IMG/VR virus record: IMGVR_UViG_2778261035_000005
DNA from: a virus
Taxonomy: Duplodnaviria > Heunggongvirae > Uroviricota > Caudoviricetes
DNA length: 64,000 nucleotides
Direction: 5' to 3' (one strand)
Part shown: positions 48,109-64,000 of the stretch, piece by piece
Layout of the letters: the number at the start of each line of letters is the position of its first letter
Numbering within the stretch: the first letter of the stretch is position 1
Program-made: the position numbers and the translations under genes
The notes under the pieces: model-generated
What the model was told of the DNA's origin: nothing
The model's input: the letters and a program-made list of their open reading frames with translations, nothing else
Databases searched by the model: none

Positions 48109-48118
48109 CTAATACTAG

Positions 48119-48134
48119 AAAACAATTTGTTTAA
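48119..48134 (+). promoter_or_regulatory. operator palindrome GAAAACAATTTGTTTA upstream of helicase
   Basis: Same palindrome family. Confidence 0.5.
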
Positions 48135-48151
48135 AAAACAAAGGAAAGCAC

Positions 48152-49492: not shown

Positions 49493-49573
49493 AAAATAAG
49501 CGTGGAGAACACCTCCACGCTTGATTCATTGGTGAAACAACTTTTCTTTTGCCAAACCACAAAAGAAAAACAC

Positions 49574-50755: not shown

Positions 50756-51892
50756 ACCAGTATTAGTCACGTACACATTGACCGAAAATGATTTAACTTC
50801 TGTGTTGAAGTTGTCAGTCATTACCGCGAGGTAGGCATTCTTGGTATCTCTGAATTGCTTCAGTATGATTTGAACGTTATCGGTGCAAACAAACGAGGTA
50901 GCCAGATTGCCTCCTTTCTCTGAAAAATCCTTCAGGAAGGTGCAGTCAACTTTGCCATCATTAGCGGTGAAGGTAGCATCATCACCCTGCCAGGTAAATG
51001 TAGCGTTAACGCCCTTATCAATGGATTTAGCAATAAGTCGCTGGGTGGCGGATTTTGTTTTGGCTTTGGAAGCCGGCGCTCGATATTTGCCGCTTTCTTT
51101 CAGTTCTGCAATGTAATCACAGCCATTTTTATCTTCTTTATCACAAGCAGCCTGATAAAGCTCAGCTGCTTTTTTATAGTCTTTTTTAACCCCTTCACCA
51201 TACTCATACATAATGCCAAGATTTGTCATGGCATCGGCGTTTCCGAGTTCAGCAGCTTTTTTATACCACTTAATTGCTTCGGCATCGTTGCGTTTAACAC
51301 CTAAACCGTCATCGTATAAGGTGCCTAATGCGAACATGCCATCTGAACTACCTTGATCCGCCGCTTTTTTGTAATAAGTAAAAGCTTTTTTATAACTCTT
51401 TTGTACACCTTTACCATATTGGTAATACGCACCAAGAAGGTAGCTAGCTTTAACATACCCGGCATCAGAGGCTAGATTGAAGTATTTAATGGCGAGCGCA
51501 TGATCTACTTTACCAAGCATCCCCTTTTGATAAATAGCACCAAGATTGTTATAGGCTCTACCTTCACGAGCATCTCCCGCAAGTTTGTAGTACTCAACTG
51601 CTTTATTTAAGTCTTTATCTACACCCTCGCCAAATGTGTACATAACCCCAAGTGCATAATATGCTACTTTGTCTCCCTTTTCTGCAGCGAGATCAATCCA
51701 CTTCTTGGCCTCAACTACATCCTTATCAAAACCATTGATACCATCAAAATAATTTGTCCCTAACTCACTTTGTGCTGCGGTATCCCCTGCGGTAGCGGCT
51801 TCTATCAGCGTTTGTTTATTGTCTGCGTTAACGAATCCAGAGCTAAAAAGCAAAGTTAATGCCAGCAACGATGAAGATTTTATGTATTTCAT
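50747..51892 (-). CDS. secreted Sel1-repeat protein
   Basis: Signal peptide MKYIKSSSLLALTLLFSSGFVNA, then ~8 Sel1-type repeats and a ~110-aa C-terminal domain. Confidence 0.8.
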   Translation of the reverse strand: MKYIKSSSLLALTLLFSSGFVNADNKQTLIEAATAGDTAAQSELGTNYFDGINGFDKDVVEAKKWIDLAAEKGDKVAYYALGVMYTFGEGVDKDLNKAVEYYKLAGDAREGRAYNNLGAIYQKGMLGKVDHALAIKYFNLASDAGYVKASYLLGAYYQYGKGVQKSYKKAFTYYKKAADQGSSDGMFALGTLYDDGLGVKRNDAEAIKWYKKAAELGNADAMTNLGIMYEYGEGVKKDYKKAAELYQAACDKEDKNGCDYIAELKESGKYRAPASKAKTKSATQRLIAKSIDKGVNATFTWQGDDATFTANDGKVDCTFLKDFSEKGGNLATSFVCTDNVQIILKQFRDTKNAYLAVMTDNFNTEVKSFSVNVYVTNTGSN

Positions 51893-52125
51893 ATTTTTTG
51901 TTCTGTTGATATAGGATGAACAGTTTAGACGCGGCAAGTGTCAAGTGTGCGAAAAATGGTACTTAAATTTAGTTAATATGTCAGCTTTGTTGATTTAGTT
52001 TATGGTCGGTAAAGTTACTAGGAAACTAATAACCATAAGAAATAGTACGTCATTTAATTATTGTGGCACTGCTCGTGTTTTGATTAACTAATACCTGCGA
52101 TAAATATAAATAAAGGGAAGCCAAC

Positions 52126-52539
52126 ATGAGCAAAAATAAGCTGATTTTAACAGGAGCTTTATTGTCTTTGTTTGCTTTAGTGGGGTGTAAGCCTACAGAC
52201 GAGAAGGCTATTGCTCTGGGCCAACAAGCAATTGCGGATGATATGAAAGATCCCACGTCGGTGATGTTTAGGAAAGATAAGTTTGTCAGGACTGATCATG
52301 ACGATGGGAGTGTGACAGGCTTTGTGTGCGGAGAATTGAACGCCAAAAATGGCTTTGGTGCATACGTGGGCTATCACTCATATGTTGTTGAACTCGAAAT
52401 GAAGCCAAAGGGCATGTTTTCGAAAGGGGTGGTATACAAAATCCTATCGAAGTCGTTGGCACCTAATGATCCTCATGACTTACAGCGTTATAAGCAGGTC
52501 TACAGAAAGATGTGCAACAGTGAGGCTGTAGCTCATTAA
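52126..52539 (+). CDS. lipoprotein
   Basis: Lipobox LVGC in MSKNKLILTGALLSLFALVGC; RBS aaggga. Confidence 0.65.
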   Translation: MSKNKLILTGALLSLFALVGCKPTDEKAIALGQQAIADDMKDPTSVMFRKDKFVRTDHDDGSVTGFVCGELNAKNGFGAYVGYHSYVVELEMKPKGMFSKGVVYKILSKSLAPNDPHDLQRYKQVYRKMCNSEAVAH

Positions 52540-52664
52540 TGGTGAATGCCGGGCAGACTATAAGCCCGGCATCTTCGTATAGGGAACTATTGCGCCTAAA
52601 ATGATAAGTAGATACATACTTAGTTTTTTGTAAGAATACTTTCATCTGTTAGCTAGGAGTTGGT

Positions 52665-53441
52665 ATGAAAGACGAAATTCAGAAATTGGCCTGTGACATC
52701 ATTGATAAAACAGGTTTAGAAATCAGCGAGGGCAGTCGACTAGACATCATTGGAAAGGCCGTCAATACAGCAATGAATCATATCGCTGCTCGTATGGACG
52801 AGATCCCGCTACCAGGGTTGCCTTATCTGAAAGTTGAGTTACACGTATGGGGCGAACCTTCTTGTGCACGGCGTTCTGCATTAGTTGTTTTTATTAGCAA
52901 AGAAAACCCGCTCAGTCTTAAAGTGCAGGTTGGAGCATGGCTTGATGGCAGAGTGATCTACACAAATACCGTTTTTTGTCTTTCAAACGACGAAACTATT
53001 GAAGCGGCCATTCAAGAAGCAGTTCTAGCAATGCGCAGCAGCGGTTTGATGAAGAATAACTACGAAGAGTACTTGCGTTCGATAAGTGGTGAAAAGACAT
53101 TATCTCTGAAAGCAGATTTCGTTACCCCGAAAAATCTGTTGGAAGTTTTGATTAATAAAGGGGCTAATAGTGCCGTAAATGTAATCAGAGAGAGTGAATA
53201 CGCGTCTCTTTGGGATATGTGCAAAAGCCAGTTGGATCTTGTGCATATCGTTGTTGATGCGGGGAAGGCTTGTGATGGCGTAATGGCGGAATTTGCTGGG
53301 AAGATGGTCAGGATTGCTAACGAATTACCGATGATTAAGCAAGAGGCTAAATCATACGCCACCAATCATGTCACAGAGCTTCTTGCCCCTTATCGCTTAG
53401 AAAGCGATCAGCGCAAGATGATTAGCTGGGGAAGTTGGTAA
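52665..53441 (+). CDS. hypothetical protein (258 aa)
   Basis: ORF with RBS aggag. Confidence 0.5.
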   Translation: MKDEIQKLACDIIDKTGLEISEGSRLDIIGKAVNTAMNHIAARMDEIPLPGLPYLKVELHVWGEPSCARRSALVVFISKENPLSLKVQVGAWLDGRVIYTNTVFCLSNDETIEAAIQEAVLAMRSSGLMKNNYEEYLRSISGEKTLSLKADFVTPKNLLEVLINKGANSAVNVIRESEYASLWDMCKSQLDLVHIVVDAGKACDGVMAEFAGKMVRIANELPMIKQEAKSYATNHVTELLAPYRLESDQRKMISWGSW

Positions 53442-53508
53442 GCTCTCTGTGTGTCGTTTTTTACGCAAACAATGATAGGTAAGCACAAGATTATTTCTGG
53501 CGGTAATT

Positions 53509-53979
53509 GTGAAAGCTGATTTATCAAAAATCCCTTCTATTTCAGGAAATAACGGTTATTCACTTCGTTGTGAGGAAGTAAAGATAAACGGTGAGTCGGC
53601 ATATTGCAGCTATTCCGTTTGCCAGCACACCATTCTTGCCTTCAAAGAAAACCGTCTTCCTCGAACTTCTTTCCAGTCGTGCGCAACCGCTATTAAAGCA
53701 GGCAAATGCAAGGCGTTAAAAATGATGGTTGAAGAGATTCGTAAAGGAGAATCTCTGTATTTCGAAGATATGACCGCACTCATTAAGGAGGTTGAAGAAC
53801 GGAATAAACAAGCCAGAACTATAAAACGAAAACGTGACAGTGTAACGATTAATAGCATGGTTAAGAAGAGCGCCACATCACAAACAGCGATCACTGACGT
53901 GTATGCGGCGTTGCTTGAAGAAACAACAAAAGAAACACATGAGCAAATCGATCAACATATGGAGGCAAAACAACAATGA
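53509..53979 (+). CDS. hypothetical protein with Cys-rich N-terminus
   Basis: ORF (GTG start); C-x11-C-x4-C-x17-C arrangement. Confidence 0.45.
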   Translation: MKADLSKIPSISGNNGYSLRCEEVKINGESAYCSYSVCQHTILAFKENRLPRTSFQSCATAIKAGKCKALKMMVEEIRKGESLYFEDMTALIKEVEERNKQARTIKRKRDSVTINSMVKKSATSQTAITDVYAALLEETTKETHEQIDQHMEAKQQ

Positions 53980-55298
53980 AAAAGTTGATCGCACTTAAGC
54001 ATAAGCTGGACGAAATGAAAGCTATGGGAACCAATGCAAAAAAAGAGGCATTGGCCAACATGGATGACTTCGAGCAAAGCATGGTTTCATTGATGCTCAA
54101 CCCTTTCATCCGTTTTGGGGTAAAGAAATACAAAGTGGTAGAGCCGCTTAGTGAGTCCGTCCCAAGTGACGAAAAAGCCATTGATATACTGAATAAGCTG
54201 GCCTCTCGCGAGCTGACGGGGAACGCAGCAATAGCTGCTGTTGAGTCTATCGTGGCGTCAATGTGCGCCGATGGGCAGGACGTCTTCCGTCGTTTCCTCT
54301 TAAAAGATCCGAAAGCTGGCGTTGGGATTAGCCTATGCAACAAGGTTTTTGAAAATCCCATTCCGAAATTCGAGGTGCAGCTGGCGTCACCGTATAAAGA
54401 AAAAGGCGACAAATACCCCTTCAAGCCAAACCCTAAAGCAAAATGGCCGATGATTGGCAGCCTTAAGCTCGATGGTTTGCGAGTAATTTGCGAGGTTATT
54501 GTTGACGAGGAAGAGGTTAACTTCCTTTCTCGTACTGGTAATCCAATCACGTCTCTCGATCACTTAAAGCCAGCCATGCTCGAATTAGGCAAACTTTCAG
54601 GCCACAAACACATCTTCTTCGATGGTGAAGGAACAGCCGGTTCATTTAACCAGTCCGTATCTGCATTGCGCAAAAAGAACGTGCAGGCAATTGGCGCTAT
54701 TTATCATGTTTTCGACTTCTTCCTACCGGAATGGCGAGCACAGGCTAAATCCAAAGAGTATGCAAAGACAGGTATGAAGCTGAAAGAGCGCCTGGCTATG
54801 CTGGTGGCGTTGTTCAAAAACGATCGCAGTGAAGGCTACACACAAGACATTCACCTGCATCCGTTCTACATCATCCATAGCCACGAAGACTTCATCGAAC
54901 GCTTCATGAAACGCCTGGACGATAACGAAGAAGGGGAGATGGGCAAAGATCCGAACTCTGTTTACGAGTTTAAACGTACCCGCAGCTGGTGGAAGTTAAA
55001 AGACGAAGACTCAGAAGATGGTGAAATTATCGACTTTGAGCCGGGCGACCCGGACTCTGGTTTTGCCAACACGCTTGGAAAAATTGTTATTCGCCTTGAA
55101 AACGGTGTGATTGTTCGTGCGAGCGGCATTAAGCATAAATATCTGGACGAGATCTGGAACAACAAAGAGAAGTACCGTGGTCGTATTGTCGAGGTTCATT
55201 GTCACGAGAAAACGCCGGATGGCAGCTTACGCCACCCACGACTGAAATGGCCGCGTTGCTTACGCGATACAGAAGATCGAATCGGAGATAAAGAATGA
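53976..55298 (+). CDS. ATP-dependent DNA ligase
   Basis: Adenylation motif I KLDG (SLKLDGLRVI) with downstream nucleotidyltransferase-like motifs. Confidence 0.75.
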   Translation: MKKLIALKHKLDEMKAMGTNAKKEALANMDDFEQSMVSLMLNPFIRFGVKKYKVVEPLSESVPSDEKAIDILNKLASRELTGNAAIAAVESIVASMCADGQDVFRRFLLKDPKAGVGISLCNKVFENPIPKFEVQLASPYKEKGDKYPFKPNPKAKWPMIGSLKLDGLRVICEVIVDEEEVNFLSRTGNPITSLDHLKPAMLELGKLSGHKHIFFDGEGTAGSFNQSVSALRKKNVQAIGAIYHVFDFFLPEWRAQAKSKEYAKTGMKLKERLAMLVALFKNDRSEGYTQDIHLHPFYIIHSHEDFIERFMKRLDDNEEGEMGKDPNSVYEFKRTRSWWKLKDEDSEDGEIIDFEPGDPDSGFANTLGKIVIRLENGVIVRASGIKHKYLDEIWNNKEKYRGRIVEVHCHEKTPDGSLRHPRLKWPRCLRDTEDRIGDKE

Positions 55299-55474
55299 TG
55301 CTCGGCTGGATGATTGCATTTTTAGCAGTTGGTTTTTTCATCGGTATTGTGGTGATGTCCAGTTGCATTAATGACTACATTAAAAACGGTGTTATAGAAA
55401 GACGCGGTCGCATTTATCGCATTGTAGAAATAACCAACACCGTGAAGGAGATTAAGGATGATCGTATTAAGTAA
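55295..55474 (+). CDS. small single-TM protein (59 aa)
   Basis: ATG overlaps ligase stop; paralogous to 55670 ORF; below ORF-track size cut-off. Confidence 0.35.
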   Translation: MMLGWMIAFLAVGFFIGIVVMSSCINDYIKNGVIERRGRIYRIVEITNTVKEIKDDRIK

Positions 55475-55673
55475 ACGGGAGAAGGAAACACTTTATGAAA
55501 TCAGTAAGTGGCCGGAGTTCCCTGAGTACTGGAAGCCTAAAACGCGGGCTAAGTTAGAGCGGTTAGGGTTGGTTGCAAACGTTTCTGAAACGAGGGGGTC
55601 GGCCAACTACCAGTTAACTGATAAAGGGAAAGTATTGCTACAGCAATTAGTAGAATCAGGAGCGTTAAAATGA
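55458..55673 (+). CDS. small protein (71 aa)
   Basis: Good RBS aaggag before ATG 55458. Confidence 0.5.
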   Translation: MIVLSKREKETLYEISKWPEFPEYWKPKTRAKLERLGLVANVSETRGSANYQLTDKGKVLLQQLVESGALK

Positions 55674-55822
55674 TTCCATACATCTCATTAGCTTTTATGG
55701 GTGGCTTTCTTATCGGCTTCGGCATCTGTCGTGATTTAATTAAGCAGGAACTTAAAACCAAAACACTGTGCATCGGAAAGCGTGTGTATCGGGTAGTTCA
55801 TGAAACAAAGGTTAGAAAATGA
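55670..55822 (+). CDS. small single-TM protein (50 aa)
   Basis: MIPYISLAFMGGFLIGFGIC...; begins with the 13-bp repeat AATGATTCCATAC. Confidence 0.4.
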   Translation: MIPYISLAFMGGFLIGFGICRDLIKQELKTKTLCIGKRVYRVVHETKVRK

Positions 55823-56109
55823 GCAATTTAACTTCTTGGGACTGGTGGTTGGCCACCTATTTCTTAGCGGCCGGAGTCGCATTCGCCTTTTACGTAGGTC
55901 AGTTAGTCGTAAAACTGTTGCTGATTAAATTTGCTAGTCATAAACGTATCGATGATGGTCTGTGGCGTCTTGGCACCCTGGTGGAAACTCGCTACGGGCA
56001 ACTTAAGGAGAACGAAACCATTACTATCCAAGCGAAACGATTCACTGCCACCATCACAAGAACACCTAGTCGTAGAGTGGCCTTGATCAAAAAAGTCGCA
56101 ACCGAATAA
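55819..56109 (+). CDS. membrane protein (96 aa)
   Basis: ATGA overlap with previous ORF; N-terminal TM helix. Confidence 0.5.
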   Translation: MSNLTSWDWWLATYFLAAGVAFAFYVGQLVVKLLLIKFASHKRIDDGLWRLGTLVETRYGQLKENETITIQAKRFTATITRTPSRRVALIKKVATE

Positions 56110-56115
56110 AAACAC

Positions 56116-56140
56116 AATGATAAGTATTTACTTACTTATC
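56116..56140. promoter_or_regulatory. palindrome GATAAGTA-N6-TACTTATC
   Basis: gataagtatttacttacttatc. Confidence 0.45.
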
Positions 56141-56682
56141 TTTTATGTATAAGATGACTTTGTTTTCGTTGAGACGCGACTGTTTGAACTTAAATACAAG
56201 TGCAAACGAAGAAGTCTATCTGGCAGTAGCCTAATAAGCCAAACACCAGCGAGGTCAGTTTCCAGCCTCGTTACCGAAATGGGACACACTGAGCGAGTGT
56301 GATTGCAGAACGCAGGAGGGAACATGAATGTTCCCTCCGATGAAGTAACAGAATGGGCGGTCAGTATATTTTCAACTCATATACGACTCCCGGATTCTTA
56401 TCCAATGACCGCCCATCCTGTTACGTCATTTTGTTCAATTATGTCGTTTATACTGGGTTAAAAAGCGGCGACGTAGCCCGGCTGGTATGGTTAGCCAGCA
56501 CACAACGTTGAGGCCATTACATTTTTATCAATTCTAAGGTTCTATTCACAGAGATACCGGCGAGCGTTGATATGTAACATGTTGGGCAAACATTCAATCG
56601 GAGTAGTGGCCTCAACGTTGTGAAGACAGGATAGTTGTGTAGGTTTAACCACTGTTGCCATTGGTGCCTGTTTTCACAACAA

Positions 56683-56772
56683 ATGATTCCATACATCACA
56701 TTGTATAAATTACAAAGTAAGTGCAGTCCTCAGAAACATCATCTACTTAAAGATTTTGCCTTCTACTATTGA
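56683..56772 (+). pseudogene. truncated duplicate of the 5' end of the 55670 small-ORF
   Basis: AATGATTCCATAC repeated; frame closes after 29 codons. Confidence 0.3.
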
Positions 56773-56888
56773 GCGAAGTCGAAAGCGTCTGGCACTAACG
56801 AAAAGTGCAAGTAGCGGTGCGTTTCCTGGCAGAAACTAAACCGTCGCGATTGGCACTGTTGAGTAATAAATACTGGCAGTGCCGAATT

Positions 56889-56963
56889 GATGGTGTAGCT
56901 CAGCGGTAGAGCAGTTGGCTGTTAACCAACTGGTCGGTGGTTCGAATCCACCCACCATCGCCA
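56889..56963 (+). tRNA. tRNA-Asn (anticodon GTT)
   Basis: Cloverleaf read by hand: acceptor gatggtg/caccatc, anticodon loop ctGTTaa, T-loop ggtggttcgaatccacc, 3' CCA. Confidence 0.85.
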
Positions 56964-56965
56964 AT

Positions 56966-57041
56966 GCCGGTTTAGCTCAGTTGGTAGAGCACCTGCCTTG
57001 TAAGCAGGATGTCAGCGGTTCGAATCCGTTAACCGGCACCA
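56966..57041 (+). tRNA. tRNA-Thr (anticodon TGT)
   Basis: acceptor gccggtt/aaccggc, anticodon stem cctgc/gcagg, loop ctTGTaa, T-loop ttcgaat, 3' CCA. Confidence 0.85.
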
Positions 57042-57254
57042 ACACAACAGGAAAGAGCATTGAGAACCGCCGAGACTGCCCTGTTTGAAGCGTAAGTCCG
57101 TGCAAACGTCATACAGTGCTCTTTTCGTTGTGGTGAATGCGGCTAAGCGCACGCGGGGAAATGGTTATATTGATCCTTTGTGATGACTATTGGCTCCGTC
57201 CACGGTGGATAACCAGCCAAAGGACACCGGGAAGCACCCGGCACCACAACAATT

Positions 57255-57341
57255 GGAGAGTAGGGAGCATGGTGCTCAAGCGGTCTTGAAAACCGTCCCA
57301 TTGCGCAAGCGATGATGGTTCGATTCCATTACTCTCCGCCA
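57255..57341 (+). tRNA. tRNA-Ser-like (anticodon TGA, long variable arm), D-arm atypical
   Basis: acceptor ggagagt/actctcc, anticodon loop ctTGAaa, variable-arm hairpin cattgc-gcaa-gcgatg, T-loop ggttcgattcc, 3' CCA. Confidence 0.6.
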
Positions 57342-57496
57342 GACACAGCGTTGAGCGGTTTGGCCTTTTAATCACCCAGATTAAGACTCCGCTAACATAA
57401 ACCAGACCGCTCAACGCTGTGATAGACAATTACGGCAGACGTTCTTAACCATAGCTTGCTAACATCCTAGCAACACTTTTTTTCAGCGCAAAATTC

Positions 57497-57521
57497 AAAG
57501 GGGCTTCGGCCCCTTTTTGGC
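57497..57521. terminator. bidirectional rho-independent terminator
   Basis: aaaggggcttcggcccctttttgg. Confidence 0.75.
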
Positions 57522-57525
57522 TGGG

Positions 57526-58806
57526 TTAATTAAAACCGAATGAATCAAGTTCTGCTTTTAATTTATCGACCATTTTTTCAACTTCAACCACAATTTCGCC
57601 AATCACCTTTTCTTTGTGTTGATTAGAGCTAAGTTCAAAATAGGCGTTATATAACGCATAACGAGACAGAAAATTTCTAATCTCATTAGCGGGTCTAATG
57701 GTGTAGCCATCGGTTAACACGATATCGGTCTGTCTAGAGTGCTTCTCGTTGAGTTTTATTAGCCGCTTTATCTGTTTTTCATCCTTGAGCACTATCACTT
57801 TGTTAGCTGCAATTTCAAGCTCCCAGCCGACAAAATAACGCAGCGTAGAATTTAATTTAGCCACTTCCTCGGCTGCAATTTCCATTTTCAGCTCAATGTA
57901 GTTTCGCATATGCATAGGTAGGTCATTAAATCTTTGCAGCAAATGTTGTCGGCAGGGGTTGTTGTAAGACCAAAGAACTGCAAACGTAAGCCTATGATAA
58001 CAGCTTATCGCATTGGTATTACAGGCCGAATCACCAACAATCATGCGATCAACATAAAACTCTACGTCTTTTTGGTATTCTTTATTGAATATATCAGCGG
58101 CATAGGTGTCCAGGTAATGAACTTTAGATATTGCATCTTCAAAGAAAAGTTCATTTTCGAAGAAGTTGTATTTGTTCAGGAGACGATAAAGTTTCTTTGC
58201 GTCGTAGGTTTTGCTATTGTCGACATTAAGACCAAAAATAGCAATCAGCAGACTTACTTTTGGACTAATGCTGTTGCGCAGTTGTTCTATGTAAGATCTC
58301 TTTTCACTATCCGCAGATGACGGCAGATAGAAGTCTTTATCTACATAATTTAGAATTAAAATAATGTGGTTAACATACTTAATATAAACAGGGTTTTTTG
58401 TTGCATAGTAATAAACGCCCTTGACGACTTTTATATTCAATTTCAAATTGTACTGACTATCATCCAGTAAGGTTTTGTTAACATCCTCAAGTAATTTATT
58501 ATGCTGTTCAAGTAATATGCCGTACCATTCCTTAAAAGAAGATTTTTTCATTTCAAGAAGCGAAGCCGCCGTCAGCCTGGTCGCTCTCATTGCCGCCTTT
58601 GCACTATGCCTTGCCTCATAAGCGGCCCATGCTGTGGCTAAAAAGGCAAGTGAAGTAGCAAGCGTACCTATAACCTCTACGTTTTCCTTGACGGTATCCC
58701 AGAAAATAATCATCACTGTCCCAAGTATGAGGATTAACAAAACAGGCATTTTATCAGTGTCTTTGGTTAATTTTGAAACTGAATGATACCTAATCGACCA
58801 TACCAT
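57526..58806 (-). CDS. AT-rich gene: membrane-anchored protein (426 aa) of unknown function
   Basis: Two N-terminal TM helices then ~330-aa soluble domain; no motif recognised; composition visibly AT-rich. Confidence 0.6.
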   Translation of the reverse strand: MVWSIRYHSVSKLTKDTDKMPVLLILILGTVMIIFWDTVKENVEVIGTLATSLAFLATAWAAYEARHSAKAAMRATRLTAASLLEMKKSSFKEWYGILLEQHNKLLEDVNKTLLDDSQYNLKLNIKVVKGVYYYATKNPVYIKYVNHIILILNYVDKDFYLPSSADSEKRSYIEQLRNSISPKVSLLIAIFGLNVDNSKTYDAKKLYRLLNKYNFFENELFFEDAISKVHYLDTYAADIFNKEYQKDVEFYVDRMIVGDSACNTNAISCYHRLTFAVLWSYNNPCRQHLLQRFNDLPMHMRNYIELKMEIAAEEVAKLNSTLRYFVGWELEIAANKVIVLKDEKQIKRLIKLNEKHSRQTDIVLTDGYTIRPANEIRNFLSRYALYNAYFELSSNQHKEKVIGEIVVEVEKMVDKLKAELDSFGFN

Positions 58807-58955
58807 TTCAGCTAGTTTAAAGCTGTCTTGCCGGTTCTAGTGTGTCAACCTCACAAAGCCATTTCTGCTTAGTAACCAAACACATTAAATAGGTAATGAC
58901 TCACCTATTCATTTTAGCTATAGTCACGACACTTACTCACTTGAAAGGACTCTAT

Positions 58956-59081
58956 ATGGGAAACAAACGTAAACAGGCGCGTCGCGCAGCTCGTCAGGCA
59001 GTGAAGTCAAAGCCACGCATCCACGGCTACGAAATTGACACAATCATCGTTAATGAACAGCAGTTGCACGAGGTGAAGTGA
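58956..59081 (+). CDS. possible small basic protein
   Basis: ATG 58956 with RBS aaggac; ATGA overlap with glutaredoxin gene. Confidence 0.3.
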   Translation: MGNKRKQARRAARQAVKSKPRIHGYEIDTIIVNEQQLHEVK

Positions 59082-59326
59082 TGAAAGTCGTTATCTACGG
59101 ACGAGATAACTGCTCATACTGCAAACGTGCGGTCGAGCTGGCGAAGCAACTAAAGGGACATGGCTACGGTGATTATGAGTACATAAACATCACCACTGCC
59201 GGTATCGATAAGGAAAAACTTAGCGAAATTGTTGGTAAACCGGTAGAGACTATCCCCCAGGTGCTGATCGATGGCCAGCCGATTGGCGGATACACAGAGA
59301 TGGCATCTTTCGTAAGTTTCTTATAA
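59078..59326 (+). CDS. glutaredoxin-like protein
   Basis: CxxC active site (YGRDNCSYCKRA) and thioredoxin-fold size (82 aa). Confidence 0.75.
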   Translation: MMKVVIYGRDNCSYCKRAVELAKQLKGHGYGDYEYINITTAGIDKEKLSEIVGKPVETIPQVLIDGQPIGGYTEMASFVSFL

Positions 59327-59364
59327 GTAAAAGCCACATCTTTGTACATATAGTACATATAACA

Positions 59365-59388
59365 AAAAAGGCCCATATGGGCCTTTTT
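59365..59388. terminator. bidirectional terminator
   Basis: aaaaaggcccatatgggccttttt. Confidence 0.75.
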
Positions 59389-59510
59389 CATAACTTCTAG
59401 CTAACCACTACAGTGGCTTAAAGACCACTTCACCCTTGCGTTCAGCTTCAGCTTTAGCAGTCATGAATCGTTTGATCATTTCGACTTTGCTAGCATGGAT
59501 AGTTTTAAAA

Positions 59511-60065
59511 TCAATCTTCCCTTTGTTTTGGGTAGTGTTGTGTTCGTATCGCATAGGAAGCTCCGTCATTTAAATAAGTTAGGCCACGCTCTTGTGTAAA
59601 TCTCTTCACATATCTCTTGTATGTGGCCATCAGTTCTTCGCGTTCTGCCGCAAAGAATAAAATCTGTATGCCTTCATTGTCGGCAACTTTGAGCATTAAG
59701 TCAACTAAAGTACCGTAAAGGTATTGAAGTTCACCTAAAGTAAGATTAAAAGACCCTTCGGGTTTGGCAAATACGTTAATTGGCTCTTCCGCTCCAAGAG
59801 CGACATTCTGGAGCTGTTCTTGCTGCCTGTCAAGTTGAATCATGTCCACAAAACTAACGACAGATACACACAACCCATAAACATCAGCACCTAACATATT
59901 ATGCATAGTTTCTGCGGCAACAGGATCTAAAGAAGGAGGGCAAAAGACTAAACGGTATCTAGCCTTACGAGCTTCATTGCCAGAGAAAACAAAGTCTATA
60001 TCTAAATATGACAGATCACCCGGCAATGAAGCCAAACCAGGTGTAACCAACTTATGCAAGTGCAT
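59511..60065 (-). CDS. hypothetical protein (184 aa)
   Basis: ORF. Confidence 0.45.
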   Translation of the reverse strand: MHLHKLVTPGLASLPGDLSYLDIDFVFSGNEARKARYRLVFCPPSLDPVAAETMHNMLGADVYGLCVSVVSFVDMIQLDRQQEQLQNVALGAEEPINVFAKPEGSFNLTLGELQYLYGTLVDLMLKVADNEGIQILFFAAEREELMATYKRYVKRFTQERGLTYLNDGASYAIRTQHYPKQRED

Positions 60066-60201
60066 CTGTCTCGAATCCCTCTTTATTAGTATAAGTTGTC
60101 TTATTGTACCCTACCAAACGTTTATATGCATTGTTATGTATTATTTTGATTTTCAATATTACCTCCTAGAACGAAGGGTAGATTTCAAAAAACGCACCCT
60201 C

Positions 60202-60234
60202 AATGATTCCATACCTACTATGTATGGAATCATT
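60202..60234. repeat. inverted repeat AATGATTCCATA-N9-TATGGAATCATT upstream of integrase (candidate recombination site)
   Basis: 12-bp perfect arms; left arm is third copy of AATGATTCCATAC (also at 55669 and 56682). Confidence 0.5.
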
Positions 60235-60332
60235 ACTGAAAATGAGTTACTTTTACTCTTGATCCTATAAGAATCTATGCCTAATATACTGTTTACTTAT
60301 ACAGTGCATCGGCGTAACTCGGTGATTGTCAT

Positions 60333-61436
60333 ATGAAAAATAGCTTTGACAGAGCACGCGCTGCGGAGAACACCTCAAAAGAGGCGATTGAGTATCTCGA
60401 AAGAGCATCTCAAATGCAGGCCGTTATGATCTCCCAGGTCAGCAATGACATGAGATTCTCGGACGCATTCATGTTATTCACTCGCTTATCTCTGCTGATA
60501 ACAAGACGTCGGCCAGAGATCGCTGTTCATTGTATTTTGATACATGTTTTGCCGCACATTGCCGATGTAAAAGTAAGTGATATTAATAGGTTCATGGTGA
60601 ACCAACTGGTCAACCCACTAATACTGGATGGCAAAATTGTTATGGGTCGCCGCGTTTTCTCTCTGATGAAGCAGTTCCTCAGCTGGTGCGCCTTCCAGGG
60701 GATGATCGACGTGTCACCGTTAAACGATATGTCACTTAACAAAGTTGCCGGTGGCGCAAAGCCCACACCTCGCGAGCGGAAGCTAACCGACGCAGAGGTA
60801 TGGGTGTTCTGGAATATATGGGACTACTTCAATGTGTGTGCTGGTACAAAATGGGCGGCCAGGCTATGTCTTGTATCCGCAAGACGACCTGACGAAGTAC
60901 TGCGGGCTAAAAAAAGTGAGTTCAACCTCCAGCGTGGGGTTTGGAATCAAGGCAAGAGAAACAAATCAGCCCGTGAGCATTCTCTGCCTTTAAGCACATT
61001 AATGCGCACATGCATTGAAGAGTTATTCGAATATGGTAAAGGCAGCCAGTGGCTTGTGCCTTCGAATAAAAAAATCGGGAAAGATCTTCCGATGTCTAAA
61101 GTGGCAATAGCCCAGGCATTACGCCGTATCCTGGAACGACCAGAACTGATGGAGCTTGAGCCATTTACACCACGAGATTTGCGTCGTACTGCGCGTAGTT
61201 ACTTCCCAGCATTAGGCATAAGCCAGGAGGTATCACGTAAAATCATGAACCACAGTCTTGAGGGGATAGATCGGGTCTACGACCGGCACGATTATATGGA
61301 CGAGATGCGAGACGCCTTAGAAAGTTTCTCGACGTACATCGCATCAATCGTAGAGCAACCGGATTTAGACGAAATTGACCACAAATTCAAGGGAGATCGT
61401 CTATCGACAGAGCTTATTCGTGTAAATTTTTCATAG
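60333..61436 (+). CDS. tyrosine integrase / site-specific recombinase
   Basis: C-terminal catalytic motifs ...PRDLRRTARS... and NHSLEGIDRVYDRHDY (H-x-x-R ... Y). Confidence 0.75.
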   Translation: MKNSFDRARAAENTSKEAIEYLERASQMQAVMISQVSNDMRFSDAFMLFTRLSLLITRRRPEIAVHCILIHVLPHIADVKVSDINRFMVNQLVNPLILDGKIVMGRRVFSLMKQFLSWCAFQGMIDVSPLNDMSLNKVAGGAKPTPRERKLTDAEVWVFWNIWDYFNVCAGTKWAARLCLVSARRPDEVLRAKKSEFNLQRGVWNQGKRNKSAREHSLPLSTLMRTCIEELFEYGKGSQWLVPSNKKIGKDLPMSKVAIAQALRRILERPELMELEPFTPRDLRRTARSYFPALGISQEVSRKIMNHSLEGIDRVYDRHDYMDEMRDALESFSTYIASIVEQPDLDEIDHKFKGDRLSTELIRVNFS

Positions 61437-61817
61437 AGACTTTATGGCCTCAACAACCTTTTGTGATGCGCCTTTCTCTTTACCGAATCGCTCGTTATAT
61501 GCAGCAAGAACCTGTTTTTCGTCCTCGTTAAGAGGAGCAGTGCCTTCTTTGTATAAAAATGCTGCGAGTTCGGGTTGGCGTTCTTCCAGCACCATCATCA
61601 TAAGACGACTTGGCTCAATACCCAGTGCCAGCGCCAGCGGACGAACCTTATCGATAGGCAAAGGAATTTTGCCGCTTTTAATTAAAGAAAGGTTGTTGGC
61701 GTTTTTATACCCAATTGTTTTGGCTATCTGGGCCTGGCTCATAGGTGAGGATTCAATCAACCCTGCGATAAAAGCAGCGTAGCGACTTTCTATAAATTCA
61801 ATCTTGTTGTCAGACAT
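61431..61817 (-). CDS. XRE-family HTH repressor (CI/Cro-like)
   Basis: HTH MSQAQIAKTIGYKNANNLSLIKSGK; divergent from downstream rightward genes. Confidence 0.7.
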   Translation of the reverse strand: MSDNKIEFIESRYAAFIAGLIESSPMSQAQIAKTIGYKNANNLSLIKSGKIPLPIDKVRPLALALGIEPSRLMMMVLEERQPELAAFLYKEGTAPLNEDEKQVLAAYNERFGKEKGASQKVVEAIKSL

Positions 61818-62068
61818 TGTTACAACCTTTGCGCGTTCAATTCTCTCTGGTAAGTGCTTACCGATATTACATCAAAGGTTAGGGTTGTAAAGCTATTATC
61901 ATTTTTTTCGGCAGGCACTTTAAAGACCGGACAAAGACCAATGCATGGTGAAAAACTAGCCCCAAATAGGTAAGAAAATTAACTTGCATCTAATATGGAT
62001 GTATTCAGTATTGATATAAATTTTAGTAGTATTCCTTACAATAGTATAAGTAAGAATGGATTGATTGA

Positions 62069-62281
62069 ATGAACACCACTATTTCCAGCCTAATAGCTCT
62101 TGAGATCGGACACGTACAAAAATTAGCTGATGAGTGTGTAGCTGACATCCTCACCGAGCTACCGAATGAGCAGATTGAGGTTGGTGTGAATGACACAACT
62201 GGCTTTATATTCGAACTTAACAACAAACGCTTCACGCTTATCAATACCGGCTCCGGGTCTTTAGCCGTCAGAACCTGTTAA
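62069..62281 (+). CDS. small protein (70 aa), Cro-position
   Basis: ORF divergent from repressor. Confidence 0.35.
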   Translation: MNTTISSLIALEIGHVQKLADECVADILTELPNEQIEVGVNDTTGFIFELNNKRFTLINTGSGSLAVRTC

Positions 62282-62379
62282 TCCCTCTTCTACCTGCGCG
62301 AATGGCTTAGTTCCCTGTTCGCGCAGTGCTACATTAAACACACTAGTAAATAATTTGTTTTCATAACAAAGGATTAGCC

Positions 62380-64000
62380 ATGTCCAAAAAACGTTCCATC
62401 AAAGAGGTTCAGGACTTCCGTGACAGTGTAAAACGAGTAGTCGCTCTCCTTTCAGGTAAAAACATCCCTGTTGCAGAACGAGGGGACGACGCTTATGTAC
62501 GCTATAACGATGATGGAGAGCCAATTCTCGTAAACATCCCATCAATCCCAGATAACGCAACACCGGCATTGATGAATGCAGTACGCGGATTTCTAGATCA
62601 TGAAGTTGCTCACATTTTGTTTACCGATATTCATGTGTCCAACAAAATGAGAGAAAAAGGACACGTCCCTTCCTGGTCACTATGGAATGCCTTAGAAGAC
62701 GTGTTCATCGAGCGAAAAATGGGGCAGGTCTTTAACGGAACAAGACGTAATCTGATGGCAACTCAGCGCCTGATAATCGAAAAAGTCTTTAAACCAAAGG
62801 CTTCAGAGGCTATTACTTATTGTGGCAAAGATCAGCGCGCGCTTTTTCTAAACTTCTTTCTCTGTCCGGTTGTAAGAGCCTGGGATGGCCAAGCACCGTT
62901 CGTAGATTTCATGGATGAATACTGGCCTGTCATTGAGAAACCAATTTCATTATTAAAAGAACATGGTATCGATGTGGCCGTGCGTAACATGTCTTGCACC
63001 GAGGATTGTTTAAAGGTGGCTGCGACCATAGCTAAGATCCTCAAAGACACAGAAAGTGAAAGCAAAGGTAAGGAGTCAGCTCCGGGAAAAACTCCCGATC
63101 CTTCAGACGCTGACCAAGCGGATTCCTCTGGAGAAAGTAATGAAGACAATGAAGATCACAAGACACATGAGATGCTAGATAACCACATATCTATAGATGA
63201 TGAGTCACACGGTAAGTACATACATGATGATAACGATAGTGATGATTCAGATAATTCTGAATCATCAGAAACAATATTCGATGATACAAAAAATGATAAA
63301 GAGGTATTAGATTCTGATACTTCCAATAGCGCGACGACAGAAGCAACTACCTCGGATCACGAAAAAAGAAAAACGGCAGAAGACGGCTCTTCAGACATTC
63401 CCACTCCGTCCAAAATGAGTCTGGAAGAGGCTTTAGAGGAGCTTGATAGCATGGAAGATGAAGTCGGAGGCATGACAGAAGATGCACTATCCGAAACGAT
63501 TAAAAGCGAGTTAACAGAAAGCTCGAAAAGCGAATACAGGCCATACAATCGCTCATACGACTTCATCGGTTCGATTGATCAGGCAGAAGCCCATATCAAA
63601 CGGCTTATTAAAACATTCTCCGATATTGATTTAGGTGGATATCCAATCAGCCGTTATCGCATCGTTCCTGAAGGCAACCAACTCTTCGACAAATATATTG
63701 AAAAGCATCTTTCGTCAGGTGTTTCGTCGACGCTGGCAAAAGACCTGGAGCGTGCAATTGCAAGCAGAAACAGAGTTCAGTTTATACCGGGCCAGCGTCG
63801 GGGGCGCATTCATGGTTCTAGTATCTACAGATTAGCAATGAATGATGATCGCGTGTTTCGTAAAAAAGAAGAATCTAAGGCCGTTAACGCCTGTGTTCAA
63901 CAAGTGATTGATTTATCAGGTTCAATGAGCGGCGAAACGATTAAACTGGCTCTTGCAAGTGCATATACCATCGCCGATGCGCTTGATCGAATAAATGTTC
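62380..64000 (+). CDS. CobT-like protein with acidic linker and C-terminal vWA domain (3' end beyond window)
   Basis: ATG 62380 after palindrome taatttgttttc and RBS aaggat; D/E/S-rich region; MIDAS motif DLSGSM near window end; not in ORF track because no stop in window. Confidence 0.65.
   Translation, partial: MSKKRSIKEVQDFRDSVKRVVALLSGKNIPVAERGDDAYVRYNDDGEPILVNIPSIPDNATPALMNAVRGFLDHEVAHILFTDIHVSNKMREKGHVPSWSLWNALEDVFIERKMGQVFNGTRRNLMATQRLIIEKVFKPKASEAITYCGKDQRALFLNFFLCPVVRAWDGQAPFVDFMDEYWPVIEKPISLLKEHGIDVAVRNMSCTEDCLKVAATIAKILKDTESESKGKESAPGKTPDPSDADQADSSGESNEDNEDHKTHEMLDNHISIDDESHGKYIHDDNDSDDSDNSESSETIFDDTKNDKEVLDSDTSNSATTEATTSDHEKRKTAEDGSSDIPTPSKMSLEEALEELDSMEDEVGGMTEDALSETIKSELTESSKSEYRPYNRSYDFIGSIDQAEAHIKRLIKTFSDIDLGGYPISRYRIVPEGNQLFDKYIEKHLSSGVSSTLAKDLERAIASRNRVQFIPGQRRGRIHGSSIYRLAMNDDRVFRKKEESKAVNACVQQVIDLSGSMSGETIKLALASAYTIADALDRINV

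What the first reader, a model, noticed from the sequence alone, without database searches (positions are those of the whole stretch)
60333..64000. Internal immunity-integration module followed by a CobT-like vWA gene under the shared operator
The tyrosine integrase and a divergent XRE repressor sit ~59 kb from the metG-side end, so this is either the right arm of one large element or a second module. The next gene is a long acidic-linker protein with a MIDAS vWA domain, preceded by the AAAACAA-TTGTTT-type palindrome; such proteins usually pair with an AAA+ MoxR/CobS-like ATPase, which would lie just beyond the window.
Basis: partly seen in the sequence, partly recalled or inferred. Interest (0 to 1): 0.5.

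Follow-up and report, generated by a model that had tools for sequence, protein, structure and literature searches.

The report
Phage-plasmid recombinase switch and CobT-like gene
This stretch is not the edge of an integrated prophage but an internal region of a known 110-kb circular phage-plasmid: an SOS-controlled recombinase with its own lox-like site, a regulator, and the start of a widespread viral "CobT/CobS" gene pair that probably does something other than make vitamin B12.

Summary
The window is about 58% of a circular ~110-kb SSU5/pHCM2-type phage-plasmid of E. coli, essentially identical to pWP4-S18-ESBL-07_2 and 97% identical to phage Cyrano. metG is plasmid cargo, so there is no element end and no attachment site to look for.

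The predicted partner exists. A CobS-related AAA+ ATPase starts 96 bp after the CobT-like gene, followed by dnaE.

The "integrase" is never chromosomal in 5,426 complete E. coli genomes. About 100 bp upstream lies a 13-7-13 lox-like site. Its arms are invariant and co-vary with the protein, and its spacer drifts. The gene also has a conserved LexA box over its promoter. The likeliest role is plasmid dimer resolution or circularisation, switched up by SOS.

The HTH gene is convergent with the recombinase gene, not divergent.

The shared palindrome is real: 14 sites against 0.5 expected. It is part of an asymmetric, promoter-like element whose reader is unknown.

The CobT-like protein keeps a zincin HExxH motif that true cobaltochelatase CobT has lost, and no cobN is on the plasmid. 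I read the pair as a MoxR-type motor plus adaptor acting on a protein client.

Overall this is mostly known biology with some new details.

The parts
55670..55684 (+). Solo half-site 1: ATGATTCCATACATC, a single copy of the recombinase-site arm. It overlaps the ATG of a small ORF.
   Evidence: Exact 12-mer. The same place is occupied in Cyrano, Klebsiella pJN2-26, Kluyvera and Salmonella relatives.
56683..56697 (+). Solo half-site 2: ATGATTCCATACATC, about 200 bp before tRNA-Asn. It marks the left edge of the variable cargo zone.
   Evidence: In the lineage whose recombinase is 59% identical, the equivalent solo carries that lineage's own arm variant, GTGATTCCATACATC.
60202..60234 (.). lox-like core site: AATGATTCCATAC | CTACTAT | GTATGGAATCATT (13-bp inverted arms, 7-bp asymmetric spacer).
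   Evidence: Inverted repeat found. Arms are invariant and the spacer variable in 7 loci and in 72 of 76 viral contigs, with 12 spacer variants. Arms change symmetrically in the 59% lineage and in a Pantoea megaplasmid homologue. There is one full site per plasmid.
60259..60287 (+). Inferred recombinase promoter: TTGATC, 17 nt, TAATAT.
   Evidence: Read from the sequence and conserved in 7 loci. At 8 of 12 consensus positions it falls below the threshold of the consensus scan, so it is an inference.
60287..60306 (.). LexA (SOS) box TACTGTTTACTTATACAGTG, abutting the -10 hexamer.
   Evidence: CTGT-N8-ACAG is kept at this position in most relatives, including the 59% lineage. The orthologous gene rises about 25-fold in macrophages, an SOS-inducing setting (PMC9928086).
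60333..61436 (+). Tyrosine recombinase (367 aa), 100% identical to CYRAN_44.
   Evidence: Pfam Phage_integrase above cut-off; phrog_1. Catalytic candidates read by eye: R185, K208/K211, R281-x-x-R284, H307, Y316. Present on 934 PLSDB plasmids. Identity to Cyrano.
61431..61817 (-). 128-aa HTH (XRE-like) regulator, convergent with the recombinase gene. 100% identical to CYRAN_45, the 'putative repressor' of phage Cyrano.
   Evidence: Expressed about 10-fold above background in lysogens. No S24 peptidase domain was found.
61849..61891 (-). Promoter-like site for the HTH gene (TTTACA, 16 nt, TAATAT; 61891 to 61864) followed by the palindrome GGTAAGTGCTTACC (61849-61862). Candidate autoregulatory operator.
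   Evidence: The palindrome is conserved in Klebsiella as GGTAAGTACTTACC. It is a single copy on the plasmid.
62069..62281 (+). 70-aa ORF of unknown function (phrog_2627).
   Evidence: The ortholog CYRAN_46 tracks the recombinase transcript across five conditions (log2 4.3 to 10.8).
62294..62326 (+). Conserved 12-bp-stem hairpin between the 70-aa ORF and the CobT-like gene. It has no U-tract.
   Evidence: Fold z-score -3.0. The stem is kept with paired changes (CTGCGCGAA/TTCGCGCAG against CTGTACGAACAG/CTGTTCGTACAG) in relatives.
62333..62360 (+). Shared promoter-like element ATTAA-N10-AGT-AAATAATTTGTTT. The 13-mer palindrome is at 62348-62360, with 1 mismatch to AAACAAnTTGTTT.
   Evidence: A perfect copy sits at the same place in Klebsiella and Salmonella relatives.
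62380..64000 (+). CobT-like gene, cut by the window end (540 of 702 codons). Sub-features: zincin HExxH at 62599-62613, acidic disordered linker at about 63106-63394, MIDAS DxSxS at 63910-63924.

Best explanation
The region is the recombination and regulation corner, plus the start of the lytic replication gene block, of a circular SSU5/pHCM2-type phage-plasmid.

(1) Recombinase. The tyrosine recombinase acts on the single 33-bp lox-like site about 100 bp upstream of its gene. It recombines two copies of the plasmid with each other, either resolving dimers or closing terminally redundant infecting DNA into a circle, as Cre does at loxP in P1. It does not insert the element into the chromosome. 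Its promoter is shut by host LexA and opens during the SOS response.

(2) Regulator. The convergent 128-aa HTH protein is the likely lysogeny regulator and has its own palindrome at its own promoter. I infer that SOS-driven transcription from the recombinase promoter may read through antisense to this gene into the 70-aa ORF and stop at the conserved hairpin.

(3) CobT-like gene block. The CobT-like gene starts a separate unit (cobT-like, cobS-like, then dnaE) behind a promoter-like element that contains the 13-bp palindrome. The same element precedes at least 19 other places on the plasmid. The unit is silent in lysogens.

(4) Function of the pair. The CobT-like protein (zincin-fold N domain with intact HExxH, acidic linker, vWA/MIDAS) is the adaptor of the CobS-like MoxR-class AAA+ ring. 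I infer that the pair remodels, matures or cleaves a protein client linked to phage DNA replication. It does not insert cobalt into a corrin.

Shown: the identity of the element, the gene content, the ATPase partner, the site and its co-variation, the LexA-box conservation, the motif enrichment, and the HExxH contrast with true CobT.
Inferred: the resolution role, the read-through, and the client and chemistry of the CobT/CobS pair.
For: Element:
- 100% identity of 60000-64000 to plasmid NZ_AP022089.1 and 97% to phage Cyrano.
- Only 2 mismatches over 48000-64000.
- All 262 places are on plasmids.

ATPase partner and synteny:
- Partner confirmed.
- The order int, xre, cobT, cobS, dnaE is kept down to 59% Int and 42% CobT identity.
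- The order cobT-like, AAA_5, then dnaE (other genes between) is kept in a 31% relative.

Recombination site:
- 13-7-13 geometry with invariant arms and 12 spacer variants in 72 of 76 loci.
- Symmetric arm changes accompany diverged recombinases, including a stand-alone homologue on a 583-kb Pantoea megaplasmid with no phage genes nearby.
- No similar site on any E. coli chromosome.

SOS control:
- The LexA box is conserved.
- A second, perfect box precedes the plasmid's S24 peptidase gene.
- Cyrano is induced 39-fold by ciprofloxacin, and its identical int rises from log2 5.6 to 10.3 in macrophages.

CobT/CobS pair:
- PDB CobT matches at E 1e-59 with a profile, and CobS at E 8e-25.
- The closest folds to the vWA domain are NorD and MDN1.
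- HExxH is kept in 142 of 146 diverse relatives, and E106 and E111 are invariant.
- HExxH is replaced by DSMALR and DAFALR in two bona fide cobS-cobT operons.
- NCBIfam equivalog scores are far below cut-off: 69.9 against 759 and 83.7 against 558.
- No cobN is annotated on the plasmid.
- cobT-like, cobS-like and dnaE are at background in lysogens.
Against: - No experiment shows recombination at the 33-bp site. A dimeric regulator could also explain conserved arms with a free centre.
- The first residue of the box II H-x-x-R motif is Arg, not His. The catalytic residues were read by eye, not from a structural alignment.
- The recombinase promoter matches only 8 of 12 consensus positions.
- Read-through is inferred from co-variation of expression in a data set whose strandedness I could not establish.
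- Three conserved solo half-sites are unexplained by a simple Cre/lox model.
- Published opinion treats viral cobST as a cobalamin auxiliary gene pair and calls the peptidase annotation a mistake (PMC8651126).
- One public assembly carries the Salmonella CobT-like gene on a 1.5-Mb contig that I could not inspect.
Confidence: 0.55

Rival explanations
1. One reading: an integration and immunity module of an integrated prophage. Int inserts the element into the chromosome at an attachment site, and the XRE repressor holds the lytic genes, including the CobT-like gene, through the shared operator.
For: - Pfam Phage_integrase and phrog_1 'integrase' hits.
- The HTH protein is expressed in lysogens and was labelled putative repressor in Cyrano.
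- The 13-mer is palindromic, as expected for a dimeric HTH protein, and the genes behind it are silent in lysogens.
Against: - 0 of 262 places are chromosomal.
- No attB-like sequence exists on 5,426 E. coli chromosomes.
- The gene is on 934 plasmid records.
- The window is part of a closed circle, with metG internal to it.
- The 13-mer is absent from the repressor's own control region, which has a different conserved palindrome.
- The shared element is asymmetric and follows terminators.
Confidence: 0.1
2. The CobT-like and CobS-like genes are an auxiliary metabolic pair. They replace or boost the host's CobS and CobT and drive a host CobN to insert cobalt, raising cobalamin for the phage.
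For: - Sequence relation to solved CobT and CobS.
- This is the hypothesis proposed for viral cobST clusters in PMC8651126.
Against: - Far below the CobT and CobS equivalog cut-offs.
- No cobN on the plasmid.
- E. coli makes no cobalamin de novo and has no CobN (established knowledge, not tested here).
- The plasmid's ribonucleotide reductase is class Ia, which does not depend on B12.
- The N domain keeps HExxH, which real CobT lacks.
- The gene order is reversed relative to cobS-cobT operons.
- The conserved neighbour is dnaE.
Confidence: 0.07
3. The 33-bp palindrome and the solo half-sites are binding sites of a transcription factor or partition-type protein, not of the recombinase. They regulate the int promoter and the neighbouring highly expressed gene.
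For: - The site lies 25 bp upstream of the inferred -35 of the int promoter, in a divergent intergenic region.
- Solo copies kilobases away are unusual for simple recombinase systems.
Against: - The 13-7-13 geometry fits tyrosine recombinases rather than small HTH dimers.
- The left-hand gene and flank vary while the site stays with int.
- The arms co-vary with the recombinase even on a Pantoea megaplasmid, where int is the only conserved neighbour.
Confidence: 0.15
4. The CobS-like and CobT-like pair is a metal-cofactor insertion chaperone for a phage enzyme such as DnaE (PHP domain) or NrdB. It would work like NorQ/NorD for nitric oxide reductase, with the HExxH site holding the metal rather than cutting peptide bonds.
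For: - The closest folds to the vWA domain are NorD in NorQD complexes.
- MoxR pairs are described as motor and adaptor for metal insertion (bioRxiv 10.64898/2026.07.21.739949).
- Linkage to dnaE is conserved.
- nrdAB is on the plasmid.
Against: No direct evidence exists. HExxH plus a downstream Glu on a zincin fold is the signature of a hydrolase. This reading overlaps with the best explanation and differs only in the chemistry.
Confidence: 0.25

Closest known systems
Cre/loxP of phage-plasmid P1 (and similar simple tyrosine-recombinase resolution systems of plasmids)
   Same: - A tyrosine recombinase is encoded next to a single site of two 13-bp inverted arms around a short asymmetric spacer.
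- The host element is a phage that lives as a plasmid.
- The expected job is dimer resolution or circularisation.
   Different: - The spacer is 7 bp, not 8.
- There is no detectable sequence match to any solved recombinase.
- The promoter carries a LexA box.
- Three conserved solo half-sites lie kilobases away.
- Activity is untested.
Aerobic cobaltochelatase CobS/CobT (PDB 9uka, 9ujv; bioRxiv 10.64898/2026.07.21.739949)
   Same: - The domain plan of CobT matches: M48-like N domain, about 90-100 residues of acidic linker, and a vWA domain with MIDAS.
- The ATPase is AAA_5 type, with Walker A and B, sensor and Arg-finger residues aligned.
   Different: - HExxH is intact here and lost in CobT.
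- Scores are far below the equivalog cut-offs.
- The gene order is reversed.
- The ATPase has a 140-aa N-terminal extension.
- There is no CobN.
- The genes are embedded in a replication module.
Viral cobST cluster of tailed phages and archaeal viruses (PMC8651126)
   Same: This is the same two-gene cluster, already noted as widespread and often annotated as 'peptidase'. The family is large: 4,842 cluster representatives.
   Different: The published reading is cobalamin boosting through host CobN. Here the host has none, and the conserved HExxH suggests the 'peptidase' label may not be a mistake.
SOS-controlled integron integrases (IntI, LexA box over the promoter; PMC3108266)
   Same: A tyrosine recombinase whose promoter is overlapped by a LexA box, so recombination is coupled to DNA damage.
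   Different: This is not an integron integrase. There is no attI/attC structure, and the site is a simple double-stranded palindrome.
MoxR AAA+ / vWA pairs such as NorQ/NorD, CbbQ/CbbO and RavA/ViaA
   Same: An AAA_5 motor sits next to a vWA-MIDAS adaptor. The best structural matches are NorD and the MDN1 MIDAS domain.
   Different: The adaptor carries an additional zincin-type domain, and the client is unknown.

Membership tests
Cobaltochelatase CobNST (CobT and CobS subunits) | C-terminal vWA domain with a complete MIDAS in CobT | tested here: met
   CobT_C at E 3e-83. D511, S513, S515, N605, D607 and D633 are invariant. Aligned to PDB CobT.
Cobaltochelatase CobNST (CobT and CobS subunits) | Score above the curated equivalog cut-offs (TIGR01651 CobT, TIGR01650 CobS) | tested here: not met
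   69.9 bits against 759 for CobT, and 83.7 bits against 558.55 for CobS.
Cobaltochelatase CobNST (CobT and CobS subunits) | A CobN catalytic subunit available in the same replicon or host | tested here: not met
   No cobN among the 131 annotated features of the plasmid. Its absence from the E. coli chromosome rests on established knowledge and was not tested here.
Cobaltochelatase CobNST (CobT and CobS subunits) | N domain of the CobT type (degenerate zincin, no HExxH) and cobS-then-cobT gene order | tested here: not met
   HEVAH here against DSMALR and DAFALR in the Sinorhizobium and Sphingomonas cobT genes. The order here is cobT-like then cobS-like.
MoxR-class AAA+ motor with vWA adaptor | AAA_5 ATPase with intact nucleotide-binding motifs, encoded next to a vWA-MIDAS protein | tested here: met
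   AAA_5 at E 2e-15. Walker A GHAGTGKS, Walker B LADEYD, and the sensor-1 Asn, Arg finger and sensor-2 Arg align to CobS. The gene lies 96 bp downstream. NorD and MDN1 are the top fold matches.
Zincin (M48-like) metallopeptidase | HExxH plus a downstream Glu on a zincin fold | tested here: inconclusive
Simple tyrosine-recombinase system (Cre/lox type) | Tyrosine recombinase catalytic domain | tested here: met
   Phage_integrase at 39.5 bits against a cut-off of 27.1. R185, K208/K211, R284, H307 and Y316 were found by eye, with R281 in place of the first His.
Simple tyrosine-recombinase system (Cre/lox type) | Core site of inverted arms around a 6-8 bp spacer, co-evolving with the enzyme | tested here: met
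Simple tyrosine-recombinase system (Cre/lox type) | Recombination between two sites | not testable with these tools
   This needs an in vivo or in vitro assay.
Integrative temperate-phage module (Int with attP/attB) | Integrated copies, or an attB-like site in host chromosomes | tested here: not met
   0 chromosomal places for the 4-kb region and for the 33-bp site in 5,426 E. coli genomes.
CI/XRE-type lysogeny repressor | HTH domain; expressed in the lysogen; operators at divergent promoters; RecA-sensitive S24 domain in SOS-inducible cases | tested here: inconclusive
   The HTH is weak in Pfam and clear in PHROGs. The identical protein is expressed 10-fold above background in lysogens. One conserved palindrome lies at its own promoter. 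No S24 domain was found. DNA binding is untested.
LexA regulon member | CTGT-N8-ACAG box overlapping the promoter, conserved, with SOS-linked expression | tested here: met
   The bare pattern is not rare (2 found against 0.87 expected), so the weight rests on position and conservation.

The most novel reading that the evidence does not exclude
Viral CobT-like proteins are active zinc peptidases, or metal-handling domains, mounted on a vWA/MIDAS adaptor and driven by a MoxR-type AAA+ ring. This would be an ATP-powered machine that phages use on a protein client of the replication apparatus. The chelatase CobT would then be its inactivated derivative. Separately, the SSU5-type recombinase would use a polar array of half-sites around its lox-like site for a purpose beyond dimer resolution, for example turnover of the adjacent cargo zone under SOS.
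Probability: 0.2. Interest if true: 0.7.

Novelty: new member of a known kind. Interest (0 to 1): 0.35.

Why it matters
SSU5-type phage-plasmids are common in clinical Enterobacteriaceae and carry resistance genes, yet their maintenance and induction circuitry is barely described.

A defined lox-like site with lineage-specific spacers and an SOS-controlled recombinase gives testable handles on stability, on barriers to co-integration between lineages, and on induction.

The contrast between viral CobT-like proteins (HExxH kept) and chelatase CobT (HExxH lost), in a host without CobN, challenges the routine labelling of viral cobST as a vitamin B12 auxiliary gene pair. It also points to a concrete experiment.

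Tried and rejected
- PADLOC gave no meaningful defence-system hit for any of seven proteins.
- Rfam found nothing in 59400-64000. It found only tRNAs and weak hits elsewhere.
- The recombinase has no sequence match in the PDB.
- The CobT N domain, alone or as a profile, does not reach chelatase CobT in the PDB by sequence. The link needed hhalign against a fetched cobT.
- The whole-protein fold search was dominated by the vWA domain, so the N domain was modelled separately.
- The genome-contig scan with the recombinase returned only 5 loci. The viral-contig scan with the CobT profile returned mostly close relatives.
- A sigma-factor gene seen between cobS-like and dnaE in a distant relative has no homologue on this plasmid.
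- I tried to fit sigma-70 -35 and -10 hexamers to the shared element by eye and rejected the fit.
- The TTTGTT-N5-AACAAA palindrome was rejected as the conserved unit, because it is absent in Klebsiella.
- A literature search for the site and motif sequences found only unrelated primers.
- The 1.5-Mb contig carrying a Salmonella homologue was not returned by the contig look-up.

Full report
**What the window is.**
The 4 kb of the finding is 100% identical to plasmid pWP4-S18-ESBL-07_2 of E. coli (NZ_AP022089.1, 110,167 bp, circular). It is 96-98% identical to about 210 other E. coli plasmids of 105-115 kb, and all 262 matching places in 5,426 complete genomes are on plasmids. It is 97% identical to Escherichia phage Cyrano, the SSU5-like phage-plasmid of strain LF82. 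Over 48000-64000 the window differs from the plasmid record at two bases.

The first 6 kb, including metG, is also plasmid DNA in these records. The window start lies inside the plasmid's own metG. So there is no "metG-side end". The window is about 58% of one closed circle that also carries virion, lysis, partition, replication and nucleotide-metabolism genes.

**The observation.**
- The recombinase ORF (60333-61436, +) passes Pfam's Phage_integrase threshold.
- The 128-aa HTH ORF (61431-61817, -) is convergent with it, with a 6-bp overlap. It is weak in Pfam but matches PHROG transcriptional regulators.
- A 70-aa ORF of unknown function (62069-62281) comes next.
- The CobT-like ORF runs from 62380 off the window end. 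In the plasmid record it is 702 aa, followed after 96 bp by a 411-aa AAA_5 ATPase and then by dnaE.

Neither of its refutation criteria (no ATPase partner, no vWA fold) is met.

**The recombinase and its site.**
About 100 bp upstream of the start codon lies AATGATTCCATAC-CTACTAT-GTATGGAATCATT (60202-60234). In seven loci from E. coli, Klebsiella, Yersinia, Kluyvera and Buttiauxella the two 13-bp arms are invariant. The left flank is unalignable and the 7-bp spacer differs. Among 76 viral contigs, 72 carry the site, with 12 different spacers.

The arms co-vary with the enzyme:
- In the lineage whose recombinase is 59% identical, both arms change symmetrically to TGTGATTCCATAC and GTATGGAATCACA.
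- On a 583-kb Pantoea megaplasmid, a 47.5%-identical homologue stands alone among ordinary plasmid genes. The site upstream of it is TGTGACTCCAGAC-TTATTAG-GTCTGGAGTCATA.

Invariant arms, a free asymmetric spacer of 7 bp and co-variation with the enzyme are what a core recombination site of a tyrosine recombinase looks like. That comparison to loxP, FRT and dif rests on established knowledge.

The plasmid has one full site. Nothing resembling it is found on any of the 5,426 E. coli chromosomes even at E = 10. The gene is on 934 plasmid records. Pfeifer et al. note that the tyrosine recombinase is a persistent gene of the SSU5 supergroup and that phage-plasmids may use recombinases to resolve dimers (PMC7969092). 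I therefore read it as a Cre/lox-like resolution or circularisation system, not as an integration module. This function is inferred, not shown.

**SOS control.**
Between the site and the start codon is TTGATC-17 nt-TAATAT. It abuts TACTGTTTACTTATACAGTG (60287-60306), a one-mismatch match to TACTGT-N8-ACAGTA. The hexamers and the CTGT-N8-ACAG box are kept in all seven loci, in Salmonella, and in most of the 59% lineage. The only other box of this quality on the plasmid is a perfect one in front of an S24 (UmuD-like) peptidase gene. The bare pattern is not statistically rare, so the argument rests on position and conservation.

Published data fit:
- Cyrano is induced 39-fold by ciprofloxacin.
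- Its recombinase is 100% identical to this one.
- That gene rises from log2 5.6 in LB to 10.3 in bacteria six hours inside macrophages, a setting the authors describe as provoking the SOS response.

**The regulator.**
The HTH protein is 100% identical to CYRAN_45, which the LF82 study lists as the putative master repressor. It is expressed 10-fold above the prophage background. It has no S24 domain, so SOS induction cannot work by self-cleavage of this protein.

Its own promoter-like site (TTTACA-16-TAATAT on the - strand) is followed by the palindrome GGTAAGTGCTTACC. That palindrome is conserved in Klebsiella and occurs once on the plasmid.

The 70-aa ORF's transcript tracks the recombinase transcript in all five conditions, whereas the CobT-like gene stays 30-fold lower. 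Between them is a 12-bp-stem hairpin (62294-62326; z = -3.0) whose stem is kept with paired changes in other lineages. I infer an SOS-driven transcript that runs through int, antisense to the regulator gene, into the 70-aa ORF and ends at the hairpin. The strandedness of the published RNA data is unknown to me, so this is a hypothesis.

**The "shared operator".**
AAACAAnTTGTTT with at most one mismatch occurs 14 times in the window (0.47 expected) and 19 times on the plasmid. Judged by their asymmetric flanks and the genes that follow, nearly all sites sit upstream of + strand genes, most of them 14-60 nt before a start codon. These genes include:
- the terminase small subunit
- parA
- the DnaB-like helicase
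- the CobT-like gene
- nrdB

The copy before the CobT-like gene (62348-62360) has one mismatch. Klebsiella and Salmonella have perfect copies at the same place.

Aligned, the element is asymmetric (ATTAA-N10-AGA-13-mer) and several copies follow intrinsic terminators directly. That suggests the start of transcription units. It does not fit sigma-70 hexamers, and the plasmid has no sigma-like gene. The 59% lineage lacks it upstream of cobT. So the motif is real and shared, but whether it is an operator, and for which protein, is open.

**The CobT-like and CobS-like pair.**
Both proteins relate to the recently solved cobaltochelatase subunits: CobT 9uka at E 1e-59 with a family profile, and CobS 9ujv at E 8e-25. 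The AlphaFold model (pLDDT 82.8) reproduces the published CobT plan: a helix, a three-stranded sheet and a helical N domain, then a disordered acidic linker, then the vWA domain. The vWA domain is closest to NorD and the MDN1 MIDAS domain. The ATPase keeps Walker A and B, sensor 1, the Arg finger and sensor 2.

Membership in the chelatase fails on four counts:
- The equivalog scores are far below cut-off.
- There is no cobN on the plasmid. By established knowledge there is none in E. coli either.
- The gene order is reversed relative to two real cobS-cobT operons.
- The N domain keeps D-H-E-V-A-H where Sinorhizobium and Sphingomonas CobT have D-S-M-A-L-R and D-A-F-A-L-R.

[quoted passage not shown] Here that proposal lacks its third subunit.

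The pair is silent in lysogens. It keeps its place between the regulator and dnaE down to 42% identity. In a 31% relative the order is again cobT-like, AAA_5, then dnaE, with a sigma-like gene and two small ORFs in between. I therefore favour a MoxR-type motor and adaptor acting on a protein client tied to phage replication. The chemistry, proteolysis or metal delivery, is undecided.

**Unexplained.**
The arm sequence plus ATC recurs as single half-sites at 55670 and 56683 (+), and inside dnaE 2.25 kb past the window (-). All three point toward the core site. They are conserved in place across genera and co-vary with the arm in the 59% lineage. The stretch between the second solo and the core site is the variable cargo zone.

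**Verdict.**
The finding describes annotated genes of a known phage-plasmid family.

The details I did not find described in the library searched are:
- the lox-like site with lineage-specific spacers
- the LexA-controlled recombinase promoter
- the half-sites
- the HExxH contrast with chelatase CobT

Noticed in passing
window 59511-60065 (-): A 184-aa ORF divergent from the recombinase gene. It is 100% identical to CYRAN_43, by far the most highly expressed Cyrano gene in lysogens (723-fold above background in PMC9928086). It has no Pfam, NCBIfam or PADLOC hit, and different genes occupy this position in Klebsiella and Salmonella relatives. It is a candidate lysogenic-conversion or exclusion gene.
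   Followed up: partly
window 55670-55684, 56683-56697; L001:18254-18265 (inside dnaE, beyond the window): Conserved solo copies of the recombinase-site arm (ATGATTCCATACATC) are oriented toward the core site from both sides. They bracket the variable cargo zone on the left and lie in a coding sequence on the right.
   Followed up: partly
window 57526-58806 (-): A 426-aa ORF with no family or defence-system hit. It is absent from phage Cyrano at this position, so it looks like an insertion in the variable zone, next to a phoH remnant.
   Followed up: partly
window 57109-57277 (+): A near-threshold Rfam match to the sRNA STnc100 (44.1 bits against a gathering score of 47, E 4e-7). It lies in the 214-bp gap between tRNA-Thr and tRNA-Ser, a gap that Cyrano lacks.
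   Followed up: no
NZ_AP022089.1 about 103554 (outside the window; 107452 in my assembled plasmid coordinates): A perfect LexA box, TACTGTATGCATATACAGTA, lies just upstream of a 129-aa S24 (UmuD-like) peptidase gene. The plasmid therefore has at least two SOS-controlled promoters.
   Followed up: no
CobT-like residues about 94-142 (window 62659-62805): A profile of the N domain gives a weak hit to the anti-CRISPR protein AcrIIA26 (PDB 9zq6_B, E 0.0027, 49 residues, shared NxxEDxFIE motif). This may be chance.
   Followed up: no
L094:9291-9890: In a 31%-identical relative of the CobT-like gene, a Sigma70_r2 protein is encoded between the cobS-like gene and dnaE. No homologue exists on this plasmid.
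   Followed up: partly
window 60215-60221 and relatives (L009, L086, L088): The 7-bp spacer of the lox-like site occurs in both orientations among close relatives (TCTATAG and CTATAGA; CTATTAA and TTAATAG). The site has therefore flipped relative to the recombinase gene during evolution.
   Followed up: partly
window 4-1038 and the rest of the plasmid: The phage-plasmid carries its own metG, apbC, dfrA51, nrdAB, thymidylate synthase, dnaE, recA and three tRNA genes (Asn, Thr, Ser at 56889-57341).
   Followed up: no
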